Numbered from the stretch's first letter, positions 4,606-63,146 are shown. The stretch is 64,000 nucleotides of DNA from an uncultured bacterium (GCA_902779565.1 CACZCD010000001.1:3929-67928); one strand, 5' to 3'. Translations and numbers: made by a program. Notes: generated by a model from the sequence alone, not told the origin.

Positions 4606-4640
4606 AGTTGGTAGTTGATAGTTGGTGGTTGATTTGTCTC
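4606..4640 (-). repeat. Heptamer tandem repeat forming the 5' leader of the nucleotidase gene (mRNA sense ACCAACU/AUCAACU x4)
   Basis: The plus strand reads AGTTGGT AGTTGAT AGTTGGT GGTTGAT TTGTCTC. This is near-identical in architecture to 25361-25400, upstream of the esterase gene. Confidence 0.8.
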
Positions 4641-4705
4641 ACGCAGAGGCGCAGAGGACGCAGAGAGAAATTTCGGAGTTGTGACTCCGCTCAAAAAATA
4701 ACATG

Positions 4706-4777
4706 GATTCCACCTTTCCACTTTTCCACCTTTCCACCATTCCACCTTTCCACTTTTCCACCTTTCAACCTTTCAAC
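4706..4777. repeat. Nine exact-length 8-bp tandem units NNTTCMAC (minus-strand sense GTKGAANN)
   Basis: gaTTCCAC ctTTCCAC ttTTCCAC ctTTCCAC caTTCCAC ctTTCCAC ttTTCCAC ctTTCAAC ctTTCAAC. The U32 stop codon (4765-4767) lies inside unit 8. Confidence 0.9.
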
Positions 4778-7427: not shown

Positions 7428-7652
7428 CGCGGGAAAGGCGCTTGTGCTTGTGTTTGTTGCCAGTCCGTGGCCGCGTCCGTTGTAGCCCGTTGCCTGTCCG
7501 TTAGGCGTCCGTATTAGCCCGTGTGAAGTCCGTAATCTGCCTGAAGCCTGTCCATGATATGTCCGTGGGTAGTCCGTGGTGTGTCCGTCTATGGGAGGGC
7601 GAGTGTCCTCGTGAAACGCCTCAAGTCCGTAATGCGTCCTTCTCGTATCCGT
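7428..7652. repeat. Array C: GTCCGT (complement of ACGGAC) hexamers at about an 11-bp period, plus a terminal block that is an inverted copy of 23224-23287
   Basis: Cores start at 7463, 7475, 7485, 7496, 7507, 7517, 7528, 7539, 7550, 7561, 7572, 7583, 7605, 7625, 7636 and 7647, with degenerate positions at 7594 and 7616. Segment 7428-7490 equals the reverse complement of 23224-23287 except for one T indel. Confidence 0.9.
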
Positions 7653-7660
7653 GTGAAGAA

Positions 7661-7697
7661 ATGCGAAAAGGCGGGCGGCCCGAAGACCGCCCGCCGC
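7661..7697 (-). terminator. Rho-independent terminator of the HU-like gene cluster
   Basis: The minus strand reads GGCGGGCGG-tcttcggg-CCGCCCGCC followed by TTTTCGCATTT, about 70 nt downstream of the stop at 7766. Confidence 0.7.
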
Positions 7698-7765
7698 CAC
7701 GGAGGGTGCGCGCGTCCACGAATGCAATCCGCTACGCAATCGCGCGCCTCCGTCTTTCTCCGCCC

Positions 7766-8833
7766 TTATATCGAGACGACAGTCACCGTCACCGGCGAAG
7801 AGGTGTGATCCGCACCGCCGCTGTGGCGCGTCACCGTGACCGAAACCTCGGAATTGTCCAGTACATCGTCGAGTCCGGTGGGCCACTCGGACTTCAAGTA
7901 CACATCGGTCATCTCGTGTACGCTTCCCCAGACCTCCGCACCGTCCTCGCGGGTGAATTTCACCGACAACTCTGAGCCGTCATACCCGAAGTTGCGCCCA
8001 GAGATCATGACTTCCTCTCCCTTGATGAGCTGCCCCGGTATGGCACCCGCAGCCGTAGAGACGATTGAGGTCACCACCGGTGTCAGATCCGGTCCGGGCG
8101 GGATCGCCGCCGCCTTGACCGTGACCTTGTGCAGAGCCGTGACGAGCGGAGCCGTGGGGTCGAGACCGTGCGAGACGAGCCGCACGTAGTATGTCCCCGC
8201 CGATACCGCCGAGGCGAGCGTGCAGATGATCCGCTGGCCGTCCTCGGTGGAGACCACCGTGATGTCTGCGACCTTGGTCAGTCCGTCCGCCGCAACGAGC
8301 GCAAGGGATTCGTCCTCGCCGTCCGGCACCGTGAGATCGATGCCCGCAATGCGGAACTCCTTCAGTCCGTCGATCAGGCGGTAGGTCTCGGACGCGAGAT
8401 CCATGACAGAACTGATCTTCACGTTGCCGTTCACCGCTTCCACCCCGAGGCTTGTCGGTGCTATGCCGGACACCGCATCGCGGATGTCCTGTGAGAGCGT
8501 CGCGCCGATGTAGAGCGTGTTGCGCGGGGCGCGGAACTCGTCGTCCTCGCTGTCGAACGCCCCGCCAATCATCGGATAGAGCGACACCGCGCCCATGTTG
8601 ATGCGTACGACATCGTCCGCGATCTTCTCGGCGGCAAACTCATAGAACGCGTTCAGGAAGTACTGCGCCGTAGCGCGGGTCATGAACGTGCCCCTGTCGA
8701 GCATCCGCTGGAGGATGTTGTCGTAGGCGAGCGAGCCAATCGGAACGGCCACGCCAAGATACGGAGCCTTCGCCGCCGTCGAAGTGCCGTTACGCACGAG
8801 ACGGTAGCCGACTTTCATTGTCTTCGTTGACAT
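7766..8833 (-). CDS. HU-like DNA-binding domain protein with C-terminal Ig-like (DUF4469-type) repeats
   Basis: 355 aa. The N-terminal about 100 aa (KVGYRLVRNG...YLGVAVPIGSLAYDNILQRM...VRINMGAVSLYPMIGGAF) follows the Bacteroidota-type HU/DUF4469 pattern. It is a paralog of the next gene. Confidence 0.7.
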   Translation of the reverse strand: MSTKTMKVGYRLVRNGTSTAAKAPYLGVAVPIGSLAYDNILQRMLDRGTFMTRATAQYFLNAFYEFAAEKIADDVVRINMGAVSLYPMIGGAFDSEDDEFRAPRNTLYIGATLSQDIRDAVSGIAPTSLGVEAVNGNVKISSVMDLASETYRLIDGLKEFRIAGIDLTVPDGEDESLALVAADGLTKVADITVVSTEDGQRIICTLASAVSAGTYYVRLVSHGLDPTAPLVTALHKVTVKAAAIPPGPDLTPVVTSIVSTAAGAIPGQLIKGEEVMISGRNFGYDGSELSVKFTREDGAEVWGSVHEMTDVYLKSEWPTGLDDVLDNSEVSVTVTRHSGGADHTSSPVTVTVVSI

Positions 8834-8850
8834 GATGTTTATCCTTTCTT

Positions 8851-9558
8851 TTATTCCGCCTTCACGACAATGTTCTTCACCTTTGCCGTTGCGGGCTTCA
8901 GCGATTCGCGCATCCCGTTGCGGCAGCTCACGACAAGCGTGTACGTGCCGGGTTCAGGCGGCTCCGCGAAGACGCAGTCGATGGTCTGGCTATCGCTCCG
9001 CTCCACTGTCGCCGTGGCGACGATGTCGCCCGTCTTGGCGTTGACGAGCCACACGCCCTCGTCCGGGTTGTCCGGCGAGATGCCGAGTTTCTGACCCTGA
9101 ATGAGCACGCGATTCGTGCCGGTGATCTCGGAAACGCGCTTCGTGACGGCGTCCATCACGGCGGCGACCGTACAGGTGAGACCGAGCGTGACGTTCTCCG
9201 GCAGCACCGCCGACATCGCACTCTTGAGCGGATCGAGCGTGCGTATCGTCGCGATGAGCTGGTGCCGTTCCGGATCGAACGCCTCATCCTCGCTCATGAA
9301 CGCGCCGCGTATCGCGAAGCCCGTGGTGAGCTGTCCGAGGTTAATGCGGTAGCCCGCAATCAGCTGAGTCATGATCTCCTCCGAGAGCGCGTCGAGGAAG
9401 TACTTCCACAGCGATGCGTCCTGCTTGGTGCGCTCCGCAAGACGCTCCGCGAGTTCATCGCGCCCGATCGTGCCGTTCGTCTGAACGTGGGCTGTATAGA
9501 CCACGCGATCCGTGATTGCGTCAGGAACACGCGTCAGGGAGAATACGATATTGTCCAT
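8851..9558 (-). CDS. HU-like DNA-binding domain / DUF4469 protein
   Basis: 235 aa. N-terminal HU-like module (VYTAHVQTNGTIGRDELAERLAERT...YRINLGQLTTGFAIRGAF). C-terminal DUF4469-like Ig module (LIQGQKLGISPDNPDEGVWLVNAKTGD...PGTYTLVV). Confidence 0.75.
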   Translation of the reverse strand: MDNIVFSLTRVPDAITDRVVYTAHVQTNGTIGRDELAERLAERTKQDASLWKYFLDALSEEIMTQLIAGYRINLGQLTTGFAIRGAFMSEDEAFDPERHQLIATIRTLDPLKSAMSAVLPENVTLGLTCTVAAVMDAVTKRVSEITGTNRVLIQGQKLGISPDNPDEGVWLVNAKTGDIVATATVERSDSQTIDCVFAEPPEPGTYTLVVSCRNGMRESLKPATAKVKNIVVKAE

Positions 9559-9571
9559 TGCATTCCCCCTT

Positions 9572-9763
9572 TCACTTGTTCACCTGAATGCCGAACGGCA
9601 CGCCAAGCCCCACAACCCCGATTGTGTGTGCGGAGTCCGCCGGAGTCGTGACGGCGGTGCATCCCGCAAGCGCCGCACCTGCGACGCCCGCAACGGCCGC
9701 AACTGCGGCCCGTACCGCCTCCTTCAGGAAGGCGATCAGCTTGTTCTTCAGCTTGCTTTTCAT
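9572..9763 (-). CDS. Small putative lipoprotein (63 aa)
   Basis: MKSKLKNKLIAFLKEAVRAAVAAVAGVAGAALAGC... with an LAGC lipobox-like site. Start placed at ATG 9763; the longer ORF-track start is unsupported. Confidence 0.5.
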   Translation of the reverse strand: MKSKLKNKLIAFLKEAVRAAVAAVAGVAGAALAGCTAVTTPADSAHTIGVVGLGVPFGIQVNK

Positions 9764-9876
9764 TGACTGTTTTCCTTTGTCTGCATTGAACGGCGGCGAG
9801 CGCATGGCCACGCGGACATGTACGTCCTCCGCCACCATGCATTGGCGTCGGGGATGCGTCCGGGTTCGGAAAATCT

Positions 9877-10374
9877 TCAGAAACCTTCCGCCGCCCACAA
9901 CGCCTTGAACCGCGAAATGAATCCCGGCAGAACATGACGCCGGAACGTCCACATGGCGATGCCGATCTCCGCCGCGACCTTCTTCCAGTTCAGCAGCTTC
10001 ATGTAAAGTTCGGCAATCCGGCGATCCTCCGGCGAAAGCCGAGCGACGGTGTGGCGCACCGCAAGGCGGTCACGCTCCCGGACACGCTGACGCGACGACA
10101 TGGCGTACATGTCCCGCACGGCCTCAACGGCAGGCTCTCCACACCGCATCTGCCACGGAATGAGGGACCGAAAATTGCGCCGCCCTTCGTTCTGCGCCTC
10201 GTTCAAAGCCAAGGAAAGCGCAGCCTTCCGACCGCGCTCCCCTTTATCCTTATTATAGTGCAACCTCCGCAGTATCATGTTCTCGACATCCGATTCGTCG
10301 AGTCCATACGGACGATGCTCACGCACATAGCGCCTCGACCAATGCCGAGCGAAGTCGATTGATTTCCGGTCCAT
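9877..10374 (-). CDS. Sigma-70 region-4-like HTH protein (small sigma/ECF-like regulator)
   Basis: 165 aa. LSPEDRRIAELYMKLLNWKKVAAEIGIAMWTFRRHV resembles a sigma70_r4-type HTH. I see no clear region 2. Confidence 0.6.
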   Translation of the reverse strand: MDRKSIDFARHWSRRYVREHRPYGLDESDVENMILRRLHYNKDKGERGRKAALSLALNEAQNEGRRNFRSLIPWQMRCGEPAVEAVRDMYAMSSRQRVRERDRLAVRHTVARLSPEDRRIAELYMKLLNWKKVAAEIGIAMWTFRRHVLPGFISRFKALWAAEGF

Positions 10375-10484
10375 GCCAATGTCCTTTTTCTGGTGGAGGT
10401 CCGGCCCATTCCAGACACTCCCAAGACATTGGCATCGACTTCGCCATCAGGTTCGGTTTCAACGAAAACAATTCAAAAAACTTA

Positions 10485-10631
10485 GCAGGGTGCGACACCC
10501 GGACATCGCACCCTGCAATCACCAAACTCCGCAAGGTGCGACACGGACACTTCGCACCCTGCGACTCTCTCTTGTTGCACCCTGCAACATCGCGCTATCG
10601 CACCTTGCCACTTTCGCCCGTCATACCCTGC
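10485..10631. promoter_or_regulatory. Iteron/operator cluster: two 32-bp palindromes (GCARGGTGCGA-N10-TCGCACCCTGC) plus three direct half-sites, right halves phased at 23 bp
   Basis: Right half-sites at 10506, 10552, 10575, 10598 and 10621. Inverted left halves at 10485 and 10531. The cluster lies 110-260 bp upstream of the sigma-like gene. Confidence 0.8.
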
Positions 10632-10803
10632 GACTCAAAAAACCTCTTTTAGGGCACCCAAACCACCGCCCCCGCATCATCGCGCCGCCCCTCCGCTCAT
10701 GCATTGAAGGCCCCTGTTCTCCACCGTTTTAACAAAGGAGGGCCGCCACCGACATTGGCCTGCCTTCCGAATTCATTGGTGCAATAGCTTGTTCATTCAT
10801 AGT

Positions 10804-11634
10804 TTACATCTTTGGCATCGTGTCCTTCATGCCAAGCGCAAGATACTTGGAGCGCGCATAGTCGTAGTACTTGAGATCGACTATGGAATTCTCTGGAATG
10901 CCGATCGAGGCAAGGTAGCGGTGACGTGCAGTGGTGTCCACGCCATCGGTGCAGCCGGGCACAACAAGGCAGCGAACCTCCATCTTCGCCTTCGCCGCGA
11001 CCAGCCGCTCAAGATTCTTCCTGACGATCTTGTTTGAAACTCCCGTGTACTTCATGTGCAACGTATCGTCCTCGGCCTTGTAGTCTGGGAGCCACAGGTC
11101 CGTGACGGGCAGCATCGCGTCAATCGCAGCGGGTGGCGCGTAGAGCGATGTGTCAAGGCATGTATGAAGTCCGGCGGCCTTGAATGCCTTGAACAGCTCC
11201 GCCGCCCATTCCCAGAAGAACAGCGGTTCGCCGCCGGAGAGCGTCACGCCACCGCCCGACTCGTCGTAGAACGCCTTGTCCTCAAGAGCCTTCGCGACGA
11301 TCTCGGGAATCGTCATCGGCTTGCCGTAGAGCTTGAGCGCCCGCGTCGGACACGTTGCCTCGTCCATCGTGCAATGCTCGTGGTGCTTGCACAGGTGCTG
11401 GAACCGCGCCCACTGCGCCTCAGACTTTATCGATTCGGGGTTGTGGCACCAGATGCACTTCAAGGGGCACCCCTTCACGAAGAAGGTCGTGCGGATGCCC
11501 GGCCCGTCCCAGATCGCCATCCGTTTAGTGTCGAGCATCAGCGGCGCCTTAACGGCACGCCCGGCTGCGGACAGCATTGGGCTTACGGCAAACGCTGTCG
11601 AAGATACGATGAAACTCTTGCGCGTTACAGTCAT
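10804..11634 (-). CDS. Glycyl-radical enzyme activating enzyme (radical SAM, PflA-like short type)
   Basis: DGPGIRTTFFVKGCPLKCIWCHNPES (CxxxCxxC) and GGVTLSGGEPL. An alternative start at M33 (MLDTKRM) is possible, since the first 30 aa look signal-like. Confidence 0.9.
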   Translation of the reverse strand: MTVTRKSFIVSSTAFAVSPMLSAAGRAVKAPLMLDTKRMAIWDGPGIRTTFFVKGCPLKCIWCHNPESIKSEAQWARFQHLCKHHEHCTMDEATCPTRALKLYGKPMTIPEIVAKALEDKAFYDESGGGVTLSGGEPLFFWEWAAELFKAFKAAGLHTCLDTSLYAPPAAIDAMLPVTDLWLPDYKAEDDTLHMKYTGVSNKIVRKNLERLVAAKAKMEVRCLVVPGCTDGVDTTARHRYLASIGIPENSIVDLKYYDYARSKYLALGMKDTMPKM

Positions 11635-25346: not shown

Positions 25347-25360
25347 GTTAATCCTTTTTT

Positions 25361-25433
25361 AGTTGATAGTTGATAATTGATGATTGGTGGTCTAGTCTCA
25401 ACCTTTCCACTTTTCCACCTTCCCACTTTTAAC
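25361..25433. repeat. Composite intercistronic repeat: heptamer leader (AGTTGAT x4-5) plus octamer units (NNTTCMAC x5)
   Basis: The plus strand reads AGTTGAT AGTTGAT AATTGAT GATTGGT GGTCTA then GTCTCAAC CTTTCCAC TTTTCCAC CTTCCCAC TTTTAAC. It abuts the AI-2E stop at 25435 and the esterase RBS. Confidence 0.85.
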
Positions 25434-33297: not shown

Positions 33298-33660
33298 CTA
33301 CCAGGAGCGGTAATAGACCGGCGGAGGCGGCGGGGGCGGCGGCGCCACCACAACCGGGGCCGGGGAATAGACCGGGGTGCTATAGACCGGCGTGCTATAG
33401 ACCGGTGTGCTATAAACCGGCGTGCTATAGACTGGCGCAGGCGCCACGACAACTGGCGGACGAACGATGCTGTTCACGATCGCCGCAGTGCCGAGAGCGG
33501 CTCCCGCAATGCCCCATCCGCAATGGTGGTGATGATGATGGTAGCCATGGCCACCATGGAACCTAGGACCGCCATGGAACCCACCATGGAACCCCGGACG
33601 GGCGAACATCACACCTGCCGTTGCCACGACTGCCAGCATTACTATCAGTTTCTTGTTCAT
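33298..33660 (-). CDS. Small secreted His-rich / Pro-rich repeat protein
   Basis: 120 aa. Signal peptide, GFHGGFHGGPRFHGGHGYHHHHHHC, a hydrophobic segment, (PVYST)x5, and a polyproline run. Confidence 0.7.
   Translation of the reverse strand: MNKKLIVMLAVVATAGVMFARPGFHGGFHGGPRFHGGHGYHHHHHHCGWGIAGAALGTAAIVNSIVRPPVVVAPAPVYSTPVYSTPVYSTPVYSTPVYSPAPVVVAPPPPPPPPVYYRSW
33362..33435. repeat. 15-bp tandem repeat (NGTGCTATAGACCGG, 4 full units plus 1 partial) encoding PVYST units
   Basis: Read directly inside the His-rich protein gene. The repeat is in frame (15 bp equals 5 codons). Confidence 0.9.
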
Positions 33661-55118: not shown

Positions 55119-55216
55119 CCTACGCTTCTTCTTTGTTGCCTTTCGGCAGACTCTTTGCATGGTTTTCAGCATCTCTGTGCATAACTACCCGCTCTTTTGG
55201 GGGTTTTGGCGTTCAA

Positions 55217-55237
55217 TTATCCACACACTTATCCACA
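55217..55237 (+). promoter_or_regulatory. Two perfect consensus DnaA boxes (TTATCCACA) separated by 3 bp
   Basis: TTATCCACA at 55217-55225 and 55229-55237. A one-mismatch box lies in the opposite orientation at 55176-55184 (TGTGCATAA). Confidence 0.7.
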
Positions 55238-62568: not shown

Positions 62569-63146
62569 TGGTAGATCTCCAAGAGATCGCGCGGTACATG
62601 CGCATGGGGCGCACCGTCCCTGACGGCGCGCTTGCGGCGCGTGTCGCCGAGCTCCGCGACGAAGCGCTCACGATCATACGGCCGGCGCACATCGGGCGGC
62701 GGTTCCCGATCCAAGATGGGAACATCGTCTCCGGCTCGGTCCGGCTCGCCGTCGCCGGAACATTGGCGAAACATCTCGTGGGCTGCCGCTCCGCCTATCT
62801 GGCGTGCGGCACGCTCGGCGCAGGGTTCGACGCCTTTCAACGCCGCGTCTCCGCGACCTCGGGTGCAGATGCGCTGATCGTGCAGGCCATCGGCGCGGCG
62901 CTCATCGAAAAGTTGATGGATGATGTTGAAGCGGAAATCCGCCGCGAACTGCAGCCGAACGAAACGCTCGTTTCGCGATACTCCCCCGGCTACGGTGACT
63001 TTCCGCTCACCGCCCAGCGCGAACTGCTCTCGCTTCTCGACGCTCCGCGCAAGGTGGGCGTGTCGCTCACCGACACCCTTCTTATGGTTCCCTCGAAATC
63101 CGTCAGCGCAATCATCGGCGTCAAAGAGGAGATCCCCACCACATGA
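62568..63146 (+). CDS. Methionine synthase activation (AdoMet-binding) domain protein, encoded as a separate ORF
   Basis: RYSPGYGDFPLTAQRELLSLLDAPRKVGVSLTDTLLMVPSKSVSAIIG matches the Met_synt_B12-type domain. ATG at 62568 overlaps the metF stop. Confidence 0.85.
   Translation: MVDLQEIARYMRMGRTVPDGALAARVAELRDEALTIIRPAHIGRRFPIQDGNIVSGSVRLAVAGTLAKHLVGCRSAYLACGTLGAGFDAFQRRVSATSGADALIVQAIGAALIEKLMDDVEAEIRRELQPNETLVSRYSPGYGDFPLTAQRELLSLLDAPRKVGVSLTDTLLMVPSKSVSAIIGVKEEIPTT

What the first reader, a model, noticed from the sequence alone, without database searches (positions are those of the whole stretch)
10485..10631. Iteron-like operator cluster: two 32-bp palindromes plus three direct half-sites phased at 23 bp, upstream of the sigma-like gene
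Read directly. GCAGGGTGCGA-N10-TCGCACCCTGC (10485-10516) is a perfect 11-bp inverted repeat. GCAAGGTGCGA-N10-TCGCACCCTGC (10531-10562) is a second copy with one mismatch. These are followed by TTGCACCCTGC (10575), TCGCACCTTGC (10598) and TCATACCCTGC (10621). The right half-sites start at 10506, 10552, 10575, 10598 and 10621, giving intervals of 46, 23, 23 and 23 bp, or about two helical turns. This architecture is typical of plasmid or phage iteron origins and of autoregulated Rep or repressor operators. It sits 110-260 bp upstream of the small HTH gene (start 10374). The spacer of the second palindrome contains ACGGAC, the core of the flanking arrays.
Basis: partly seen in the sequence, partly recalled or inferred. 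Interest (0 to 1): 0.7.

Follow-up and report, generated by a model that had tools for sequence, protein, structure and literature searches.

The report
Phased seven-site operator array upstream of sigma-like gene
The repeats are real: seven copies of a 13-bp symmetric site, spaced exactly 23 bp apart, sit just upstream of an orphan sigma-factor-like gene in an uncultured rumen bacterium, and they most likely form a docking platform for an unidentified regulatory protein rather than a replication origin.

Summary
The cluster at 10483-10633 is seven units in exact 23-bp register. Each unit is a 13-bp dyad, TCGCA-SSS-TGCGA. The two "32-bp palindromes" are neighbouring units whose centre triplet is flipped (GGG versus CCC). 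The motif occurs nowhere else in the 64 kb.

The array heads a ~3-kb cassette: array, AT-rich stretch, leader hairpin over the ribosome-binding site and start codon, 165-aa sigma-like gene, small lipoprotein-like gene, two HU-Ig genes. This cassette is 96.8% identical at another locus where both flanks differ.

In 14 relatives the 13-nt cores are conserved and the spacers are not. Apart from one degenerate distal unit, the only indels are whole 23-bp units. Other relatives keep the flanks, the unit count and the period, but carry a different motif.

There is no Rep, Par or DnaA box, no skew change, and no phage or plasmid match. A weak RsmZ-like RNA match (20 bits against a threshold of 44) does not extend to the other classes.

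Best reading: a cooperative multi-operator or upstream-activating array for an unknown trans-acting DNA-binding protein. Interest is moderate.

The parts
10483..10633 (.). Array of seven 23-bp units. Cores are at 10483-10495, 10506-10518, 10529-10541, 10552-10564, 10575-10587, 10598-10610 and 10621-10633. Each core is a 13-bp dyad TCGCA-SSS-TGCGA. On the + strand the centre triplet is GGG/AGG in units 1 and 3 and CCC/CCT in the others.
10634..10662 (-). Conserved distal flank (gene orientation TTTGGGTGCC-N9-TTTTTTGAGTC). It marks the outer edge of the cassette: homology to loci in other genomic contexts stops at about 10644-10662.
10441..10482 (-). AT-rich stretch (37.5% G+C, against about 60% in the surrounding kilobases) with a conserved T-run, lying between the array and the leader. 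It is the inferred site of the core promoter. No sigma-70 consensus match was found.
10372..10441 (-). 5' leader hairpin that pairs GUCGAUGCCAAUGUC with GACAUUGGCAUGGAC, burying the Shine-Dalgarno sequence and the AUG. The apical loop GGAAU is conserved.
   Evidence: (I3)
9877..10374 (-). 165-aa orphan protein with a sigma-70/ECF-like two-domain fold (sigma-4-like HTH at the C-terminus).
9572..9766 (-). 64-aa lipoprotein-like ORF (lipobox LAGC). It also follows the sigma-like gene in the remote homologue locus L030.
8851..9558 (-). HU-Ig protein 1 (HU-DNA_bdg + DUF4469).
7766..8833 (-). HU-Ig protein 2 (HU-DNA_bdg + DUF4469/TIG). Its C-terminal part is variable between loci.
7635..7698 (-). 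G+C-rich hairpin plus T-run after the last cassette gene, read by eye as a terminator (no terminator scan was run on this region). It is the last block shared with L015 (84% identity).

Best explanation
The cluster is a cis-regulatory DNA array. Seven dyad-symmetric binding sites on a strict 23-bp period abut the AT-rich core-promoter region of a cassette that encodes a sigma-like protein, a small lipoprotein and two HU-Ig proteins.

Inferred mechanism: dimers of a sequence-specific DNA-binding protein occupy the 13-bp cores and interact along the array. This cooperative nucleoprotein complex switches the cassette promoter on or off. A second control layer is the leader hairpin, which hides the ribosome-binding site.

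Shown: the sites, their exact phasing, selection on cores but not spacers, selection on spacing, their fixed position relative to conserved flanks, and their exclusive association with this gene family.

Inferred: that a protein binds, that binding is cooperative, where the promoter lies, and the sign of regulation.

The data argue that it is not the HTH of the adjacent sigma-like protein, so it is probably encoded elsewhere.
For: (1) All seven units are in exact 23-bp register. The same holds in 14 non-redundant relatives.

(2) A logo of 104 units shows 1.3-1.9 bits at most positions from -6 to +6, dropping to 0.5-0.9 at the degenerate positions -5 and -1, and 0.75 bits or less in the 10-nt spacers.

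(3) In those diverged arrays the indels are insertions of one whole 23-bp unit (L006, L011, L026), plus one 1-nt deletion in a degenerate distal unit of L012. Single-base indels do occur in the flanking T-run and the leader.

(4) Class II loci (L001, L020) replace the motif with TCAATC-S-GATTGA. They keep seven units, the 23-bp period and nearly the same span between the conserved flanks: 159 bp, against 157-158 bp.

(5) A pseudogenised copy has a third motif at a 22-bp period (L014).

(6) Remote homologues have their own arrays. L030 has 3 units of CGTCA-S-TGACG at 22 bp. L032 has 5 units alternating GATGCGCATC and GTCCTAGGAC at 22 bp. L028 has 2 units at 23 bp. Even-length perfect palindromes are typical of operators for protein dimers.

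(7) The motif is absent from the rest of the 64 kb and from the other parts of the related loci, which suggests a dedicated rather than global site.

(8) The array ends about 45 bp upstream of a conserved leader, next to the only AT-rich stretch. No sigma-70 consensus promoter was found there, as would be expected for a factor-dependent promoter.
Against: No binding protein is identified, and no cassette-encoded protein co-varies with the array class. The transcription start is not mapped, so the positions of the sites relative to the promoter are inferred.

A 23-bp period is about 2.2 helical turns, so successive sites are not on one face of the helix. Two remote homologue loci (L031, L035) show palindromes but no clear array.

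On the sense strand the proximal unit pair plus the T-run scores as terminator-like. The region also gives a weak RsmZ-like match. A function at the RNA level is therefore not excluded.
Confidence: 0.55

Rival explanations
1. RNA-level element. The array is transcribed on the - strand, either as a repeat-hairpin sRNA that sequesters a protein (CsrB/RsmZ-like) or as a long leader or attenuator. In the attenuator version, units A4:B1 and A5:B2 form hairpins, the last one terminates transcription, and the alternative B1:A5 pairing prevents termination.
For: There is an Rfam PrrB/RsmZ match over the whole model on the - strand at 10484-10602, at 20.1 bits and E 0.008-0.015 for this small search. 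The unit UCGCAGGGUGCGA is close to the RsmZ hairpin UCGCAGGAAGCGA.

The proximal pair plus UAAGUUUUUU is flagged as terminator-like. In the two long stems, non-Watson-Crick positions are G.U on the sense strand in 14 cells and A.C in 1 (32 against 2 if the alternative B1:A5 pairing is included). The leader has a conserved GGAAU apical loop and an AAGGA Shine-Dalgarno sequence, like CsrA-controlled leaders.
Against: The score is far below the gathering threshold of 44, and nothing was reported in the whole-window scan. The loops read GGG or AGG, not GGA. The U-run starts 3-4 nt after the stem.

Exact 23-nt phasing, and the absence of loop or linker indels, are not expected for hairpin RNAs. Classes II and III and the remote arrays lack a terminator-like end, and their majority orientation does not keep GG in the loops. 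Folding z-scores are the same on both strands, -4.3 and -4.8. The G.U excess traces to very few independent substitutions.
Confidence: 0.17
2. Direct units are iterons of a plasmid- or phage-type origin. The inverted units form the operator through which the adjacent small HTH protein (acting as Rep or repressor) represses its own gene.
For: The geometry matches iteron plasmids: direct repeats at 22-23 bp, inverted copies nearest the gene, and an adjacent AT-rich stretch. The cassette sits in different genomic contexts at 96.8% identity.
Against: The HTH is identical in loci that carry different motifs. The AF2 model matches sigma factors, not winged-helix Rep proteins.

There is no DnaA box within 10 kb and no GC-skew change. 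There are no homologues in 50,697 phage or 72,556 plasmid records, and none in PHROGs. The motif is absent from viral contigs. No Par, relaxase or integrase gene lies in the cassette.
Confidence: 0.08
3. Recombination or transposition site. The array holds multiple binding sites for a recombinase or transposase at the end of a mobile cassette, as in Tn7 or Mu ends or integron attI.
For: Homology between cassettes in different contexts stops 10-30 bp outside the outermost unit. L015 has a large serine recombinase 3.4 kb beyond the cassette. Arrays are exchanged between conserved flanks.
Against: There is no second array or inverted copy of the motif at the other cassette end, or anywhere else in the 64 kb or the 12-kb L015 locus. 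No recombinase lies next to the window copy. In L028 and L030 the array lies inside an ordinary divergent intergenic region.
Confidence: 0.05
4. Non-functional tandem duplication or chance repeat.
For: Unit number varies between 7 and 8.
Against: Cores are conserved far above spacers in loci whose proteins are only 49-52% identical. Architecture is conserved across motif classes. 0 of 100 shuffles reach the observed count.
Confidence: 0.02

Closest known systems
Multi-operator regions of temperate-phage repressors (lambda OR1-OR3 / OL1-OL3)
   Same: Both have dyad-symmetric sites for dimers, a centre-to-centre spacing of 23-24 bp, and adjacent sites next to or overlapping a promoter, with cooperative occupancy inferred here. 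The lambda spacing is from general knowledge.
   Different: There are seven to eight sites instead of three. No repressor gene is adjacent. The sites carry an asymmetric centre triplet whose polarity is conserved (five of one polarity and two of the other; A A A A B A B in gene orientation). The context is not a phage.
Iteron regions with a rep operator in theta plasmids (pPS10, pSC101, R6K, RK2)
   Same: Both have direct repeats at a period of about 22-23 bp, inverted copies nearest the downstream gene, and an AT-rich stretch beside the repeats.
   Different: The downstream gene is sigma-like, not a winged-helix Rep. There are no DnaA boxes. The locus is chromosomal. The adjacent protein's HTH does not co-vary with the repeat.
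Plasmid centromere or operator arrays (R1 parC, F sopC, omega-repressor heptad arrays of pSM19035)
   Same: Both are arrays of many short sites in direct and inverted orientation upstream of an operon, bound cooperatively and also acting as the operator. This comparison is from general knowledge.
   Different: There is no ParA, ParM or TubZ partner and no small RHH or HTH centromere-binding gene in the cassette. The locus is not on a plasmid.
PrrB/RsmZ (Rfam RF00166) CsrA/RsmA-sequestering sRNAs
   Same: Both have repeated short hairpins. The unit UCGCAGGGUGCGA differs from the RsmZ consensus hairpin UCGCAGGAAGCGA only in the two loop bases after GG. A 3' hairpin is followed by a U-run.
   Different: The score is 20.1 bits against a gathering score of 44. 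There is no GGA. The period is rigid at 23 nt. The resemblance is lost in the other array classes.
HU-HIG proteins of Bacteroidetes (PMC5499826)
   Same: The cassette cargo is a tandem pair of HU-domain proteins fused to an Ig-like domain.
   Different: That paper reports almost no conserved operon linkage for this family. Here the pair is consistently linked to a sigma-like gene, a small lipoprotein gene and the array, in a lineage represented by a MAG labelled Verrucomicrobia.

Membership tests
Iteron-type replication origin | Three or more direct repeats of about 17-23 bp on a regular 22-23-bp period | tested here: met
   Seven units at exactly 23 bp
Iteron-type replication origin | Adjacent gene encodes the Rep initiator (winged-helix fold) that reads the iterons | tested here: not met
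   The AF2 model (pLDDT 85) has sigma factors as nearly all its top Foldseek PDB matches. The HTH is identical in loci with different repeats.
Iteron-type replication origin | DnaA boxes and an AT-rich unwinding element beside the iterons | tested here: not met
   A 40-bp AT-rich stretch is present, but no DnaA box with up to 1 mismatch lies within 10 kb.
Iteron-type replication origin | Located on a plasmid, phage or other replicon; supports autonomous replication | tested here: inconclusive
   No relatives in the plasmid or phage collections and no skew change. Replication itself cannot be tested with these tools.
Cooperative operator / upstream-activating site array (generic cis-regulatory class) | Sites lie in the promoter-proximal intergenic region of the regulated gene and keep a fixed position relative to it | tested here: met
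   The array is 111-257 bp from the ATG. The span between conserved flanks is constant in classes I and II.
Cooperative operator / upstream-activating site array (generic cis-regulatory class) | Site cores are under stronger constraint than spacers, and spacing is constrained | tested here: met
   Unit logo. Apart from one 1-nt deletion in a degenerate distal unit, the only indels are whole units.
Cooperative operator / upstream-activating site array (generic cis-regulatory class) | A cognate DNA-binding protein is identified | not testable with these tools
   No candidate co-varies. The sigma-like HTH is excluded as the specificity determinant.
PrrB/RsmZ-CsrB type sRNA | Reaches the Rfam gathering score | tested here: not met
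   20.1 bits against 44
PrrB/RsmZ-CsrB type sRNA | Several GGA motifs exposed in hairpin loops | tested here: not met
   Loops are GGG or AGG followed by U. Class III, L030 and L032 units do not expose GGA in hairpin loops.
PrrB/RsmZ-CsrB type sRNA | Own promoter and Rho-independent terminator | tested here: inconclusive
   A terminator-like hairpin is present, but the U-run is offset by 3-4 nt. No promoter was recognised.
Sigma-70 / ECF sigma factors (the adjacent gene) | Sequence match to sigma-70 region 2 / region 4 models above the curated cut-off | tested here: not met
   TIGR02937 scores 17.6 bits against 42.9. There is no Pfam sigma hit, and none in remote homologues.
Sigma-70 / ECF sigma factors (the adjacent gene) | Two-domain sigma-2 / sigma-4 fold | tested here: inconclusive
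   Foldseek top hits are almost all sigma factors, and the sigma-4 domain matches at probability 0.9. However, E-values are 0.03 or higher and TM-scores about 0.3.
Sigma-54 promoter with enhancer-binding-protein UAS | Invariant GG-N10-GC (-24/-12) element downstream of the sites | tested here: not met
   TGGCGAAGTCGATGCC fits in the window, but the GG is replaced in L001, L008, L018 and L025 (sequences).

The most novel reading that the evidence does not exclude
The arrays are interchangeable sensor modules. Each motif class would be the landing pad for a different DNA-binding protein, possibly one brought in by a phage or other mobile element. Occupancy of the seven-site platform would switch on an orphan sigma-like factor, which would then drive the HU-Ig proteins. 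That family has been proposed to act in conflicts with invading DNA (PMC5499826).

This would explain why nearly identical cassettes carry unrelated motifs in the same rigid frame, why the adjacent protein does not co-vary, and why the cassette moves between genomic contexts.
Probability: 0.08. Interest if true: 0.75.

Novelty: new variant of a known kind. Interest (0 to 1): 0.4.

Why it matters
If the reading is right, the locus gives a clean natural example of a rigid, modular promoter platform. It has seven sites on a fixed 23-bp period, at a fixed distance from the promoter. Its sequence specificity has been swapped at least three times while the frame was kept.

It also gives a first regulatory handle on two poorly understood protein groups. 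One is an orphan sigma-like family with only 79 cluster representatives among 1.84 billion proteins. The other is the HU-Ig proteins, for which no operon context was known.

The practical value is limited until the binding protein and the transcription start are found. The organism is an uncultured rumen bacterium.

Tried and rejected
**Dispersed REP-like element.** Rejected. There are no further copies in the window or in the non-upstream parts of 37 related loci.

**Chromosomal or plasmid origin.** Rejected. There is no skew switch, no DnaA boxes nearby, and no plasmid, phage, PHROG or viral-contig matches.

Rejected by the lack of co-variation.

**Sigma-54 promoter plus enhancer sites.** Rejected. 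The -24 GG is not conserved.

**Sigma-70 promoter.** The scan found nothing. Hand inspection gave two candidate placements: TAAATC as a -10 element, or an ECF-like G(A/T)AAAY-N16-17-GTCGAY. Neither holds in all variants. GTCGAY is also explained by pairing with AUGGAC in the leader.

**Coding potential of the ORFs overlapping the array (10359-10652 +, 10373-10732 +, 10319-10534 -).** Rejected. Whole-unit 23-bp indels would shift the reading frame.

**Link between ACGGAC in a spacer and the flanking ACGGAC arrays.** Rejected as not conserved.

**G.U versus A.C asymmetry as evidence for RNA.** Counted, but there are too few independent events to carry weight.

**Co-variation of the HU-Ig or lipoprotein genes with array class.** Could not be tested. 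All class II contigs end before those genes, and the class III copy is a decayed pseudogene.

**Literature searches.** Searches for HU-HIG context and for 23-bp operator arrays gave only the HU-HIG survey.

Full report
**1. Observation**

TCGCACCCTGC with up to 2 mismatches occurs seven times between 10485 and 10631. With up to 1 mismatch there is only one further copy in the window, at 62820. The 9-mer core GCARGGTGC occurs six times in the cluster and once elsewhere. The chance expectation is 1.6, and 0 of 100 shuffles reached 7.

The description can be simplified. Each half-site is the larger part of a 13-bp dyad, TCGCA-NNN-TGCGA. When centred on that dyad, all seven units fall on one exact 23-bp register, with centres at 10489, 10512, 10535, 10558, 10581, 10604 and 10627. 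The two "32-bp palindromes" are adjacent units whose asymmetric centre triplet has opposite polarity (GGG/AGG against CCC/CCT). That flip also produces the 21- and 25-bp start-to-start offsets.

**2. Setting**

All genes around the cluster are on the - strand. In reading order they are:
- a glycyl-radical-enzyme activase (10804-11634);
- the array;
- a 165-aa protein (9877-10374);
- a 64-aa lipoprotein-like ORF (9572-9766);
- two HU-domain proteins fused to Ig-like domains (8851-9558 and 7766-8833);
- a hairpin with a T-run, read by eye as a terminator, then rpmE and prfA.

The 165-aa protein has only sub-threshold sequence matches to sigma-70/ECF models. Its AlphaFold model has mean pLDDT 85, and nearly all its top Foldseek PDB matches are sigma factors. 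The C-terminal domain matches sigma-4 at probability about 0.9. The E-values are weak, at 0.03 or higher, so I call it sigma-like and do not file it as a sigma factor.

The family is very small. There are 57 clusters in 5.8 billion proteins and 79 representatives in a profile search of 1.84 billion. Most come from ENA metagenome assemblies. The only genome hit is a MAG labelled Verrucomicrobia bacterium Tb.RUG.75. Its name and several sample labels suggest rumen datasets.

**3. Related loci**

I collected 37 loci.

(a) *A cassette found in different contexts.* The window from 8088 to 10644 is 96.8% identical to L015, yet both flanks differ. L015 has a glycoside-hydrolase gene upstream, and beyond the cassette it has a different gene set that includes a serine recombinase. 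Across loci, homology to the window stops at 10635-10699, which is 2-66 bp outside the outermost unit (mostly 10-30 bp). The unit that travels is therefore: array, leader, sigma-like gene, small lipoprotein gene, HU-Ig genes.

(b) *Class I arrays.* Fourteen non-redundant loci carry the same motif. These include loci whose protein is only 49-52% identical to the window's. A logo of 104 units shows that information is concentrated in the 13-nt core, T-N-G-C-A-R-G-G-T-G-C-R-A. Most core positions carry 1.3-1.9 bits. The two degenerate positions carry 0.5-0.9 bits. The 10-nt spacer carries 0.75 bits or less.

Within the array, the indels in 14 diverged loci are insertions of one whole 23-bp unit (L006, L011, L026) and one single-base deletion in a degenerate distal unit of L012. 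Single-base indels also occur in the adjacent T-run and in the leader. The polarity pattern A A A (A) A B A B is conserved.

(c) *Class II arrays.* L001/L007 and L019-L024 have the same distal flank (TTTTTC(A/T)GTC), the same proximal flank (GACTATTT...GTAAATCTGGCGGC) and the same leader. Between these flanks lie seven units of a different dyad, TCAATC-S-GATTGA, again on an exact 23-bp register. The span between the flanks is 159 bp, against 157-158 bp for seven-unit class I arrays and 180-182 bp for eight-unit arrays.

(d) *Class III.* L014 has six or seven units of GAACCATGCAA at 22 bp. They precede a copy of the gene with a stop codon and an internal deletion.

(e) *Remote homologues* (profile E-values 1e-31 to 1e-11):
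- L030 has three units of CGTCA-S-TGACG at 22 bp, with the central base flipping.
- L032 has five units at 22 bp that alternate two perfect palindromes, GATGCGCATC and GTCCTAGGAC.
- L028 has two units at 23 bp.
- L031 and L035 have palindromes but no clear array.

**4. Who reads the array?**

That is not supported. L018, L025 and L026 (class I) and L001 and L020 (class II) encode the same helix-turn-helix, VALDFM(N/E)LLSWQKVAARRGMSEGSFRRHVLAGF. The window's own HTH is different (IAELYMKLLNWKKVAAEIGIAMWTFRRHVLPGF), yet it goes with class I. The recognition-helix region G-SEG-FRR-VLP is kept in the remote homologues P0065, P0075 and P0084. One of these, P0065 (L028), has another upstream motif. 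The array motif therefore changes without a matching change in this protein.

For the HU-Ig proteins, a published structural survey argues that the Ig domain fills the DNA cleft (PMC5499826). I could not test their co-variation with array class, because every class II contig ends before those genes. The motif is absent from the other 64 kb. This points to a dedicated factor rather than a global one, and that factor remains unknown.

**5. DNA or RNA?**

*Arguments for DNA-level recognition:*
- the exact period over all units, including those that cannot pair with a partner;
- near-absence of indels other than whole units;
- conservation of period, unit number and distance to the flanks when the motif is replaced;
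- even-length perfect palindromes in L032;
- equal predicted folding on both strands, with z-scores of -4.3 and -4.8.

*Arguments for an RNA role on the sense strand:*
- The proximal unit pair followed by UAAGUUUUUU is scored as terminator-like.
- Rfam gives a full-length but sub-threshold PrrB/RsmZ match, at 20.1 bits against 44. In that alignment the unit UCGCAGGGUGCGA lines up with the RsmZ hairpin UCGCAGGAAGCGA.
- In the two long stems, non-Watson-Crick positions are G.U in 14 cells and A.C in 1 (32 against 2 if the alternative B1:A5 pairing is counted).

These points are weak. The loops lack GGA. The U-run is offset by 3-4 nt. The G.U excess comes from a handful of substitutions. None of it carries over to the other array classes. 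I keep the RNA reading as the main rival, at about 0.17.

**6. Origin, centromere or transposon end?**
- GC skew is uniformly negative across the window.
- The nearest DnaA-like box is at 21176.
- The cassette proteins have no relatives in the phage or plasmid collections, and only one marginal PHROG match (E 0.0015, HU-Ig 2).
- The palindrome pattern is absent from IMG/VR.
- There is no Rep, Par, relaxase or integrase gene in the cassette.
- There is no second array at the other end of the cassette.

These readings are unlikely.

**7. Most likely mechanism**

The array abuts the only AT-rich stretch of the intergenic region: 10440-10479 has 37.5% G+C, against about 60% in the surrounding kilobases. 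That stretch is followed by a leader that folds at -42 kcal/mol, with a z-score of -4.45. In the fold, GUCGAUGCCAAUGUC pairs with GACAUUGGCAUGGAC, which buries the Shine-Dalgarno sequence and the AUG. Three pairs show compensatory changes across relatives.

I infer that the core promoter lies in the AT-rich stretch. No sigma-70 consensus was found there. The seven sites would then occupy roughly -40 or -60 to about -200. A dimeric factor would fill them cooperatively and control the cassette, with translation gated separately by the leader. The sites, their phasing and their selective constraint are shown. Protein binding, cooperativity, promoter position and the sign of regulation are inferred. 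Confidence is 0.55.

**8. Comparison and novelty**

In geometry the array works like lambda-type multi-operator regions, iteron-plus-operator regions, or parC/sopC-type arrays. It fails the defining tests for an iteron origin: no Rep, no DnaA boxes, and not on a replicon. It also fails the test for RsmZ membership. It fits the generic class of cooperative operator or upstream-site arrays, with the binding protein still missing.

Three things are unusual: the rigid seven-unit, 23-bp frame; the replacement of the motif inside that frame between close relatives; and the association with an orphan sigma-like family and with HU-Ig genes. I rate it a new variant of a known kind, with interest 0.4.

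Noticed in passing
window 7456-7650 (- strand), 22610-22700 and 23020-23260 (+ strand); L015 8635-8800: Long arrays of ACGGAC (variants ACGGGC, ACGGTC) at an 11-bp period, all in gene orientation. They lie upstream of rpmE and of the ORF at 23294. At both window loci they are followed by a near-identical ~55-nt block, ACGGACGCGGCCACGGACTGGCAACAAACACAAGCACAAGCGCCTTTCCCGCG. Such an array also follows the cassette in L015.
   Followed up: partly
window 10372-10441 (- strand): Conserved 5' leader hairpin (-42 kcal/mol, z -4.45) that buries the Shine-Dalgarno sequence and the AUG of the sigma-like gene. It has a conserved GGAAU apical loop and three compensatory pairs across relatives. The remote homologue locus L028 has an analogous hairpin with an unrelated sequence.
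   Followed up: partly
window 7635-10662; L015-L018, L025-L027: The sigma-like gene, the 63-88-aa lipoprotein-like gene and a pair of HU-Ig genes form a conserved cassette found in different genomic neighbourhoods. In L026 a convergent AAA_14/DUF4143 ATPase gene is inserted after the sigma-like gene, and the same arrangement appears to hold in L001. The published survey of HU-HIG proteins reports almost no conserved operon linkage.
   Followed up: partly
window 4606-4774 and 25360-25430; L010 1-80: Other short tandem arrays lie upstream of - strand genes: AGTTGAT x4 next to TTCCACCT/GGTGGAAA x3-8. The same TTCCAC array type appears upstream of the cassette in L010.
   Followed up: no
window 33367-33437: A 15-bp unit, ATAGACCGGCGTGCT, repeated 4.7 times with 89% matches in an intergenic region.
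   Followed up: no
window 55176-55237: Three DnaA-box-like 9-mers within 62 bp. Two are perfect TTATCCACA copies 12 bp apart, and one has a single mismatch on the other strand. They lie in a lower-G+C stretch. Over the whole window there were 10 matches against 4.8 expected.
   Followed up: no
window 10751-10762 and 10660-10700 (- strand): A second copy of the leader's GCCAATGTC arm lies upstream of the array, together with a block GAG-GGCGGCGCG-TGATGCG. Both are shared with L002, L004 and the class III locus L014. Their role is unknown (I14, 17).
   Followed up: no
L032 2117-2223: In a remote homologue locus, the upstream array alternates two different perfect palindromes (GATGCGCATC and GTCCTAGGAC) on a 22-bp period. 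This suggests two readers, or a 44-bp composite unit.
   Followed up: partly
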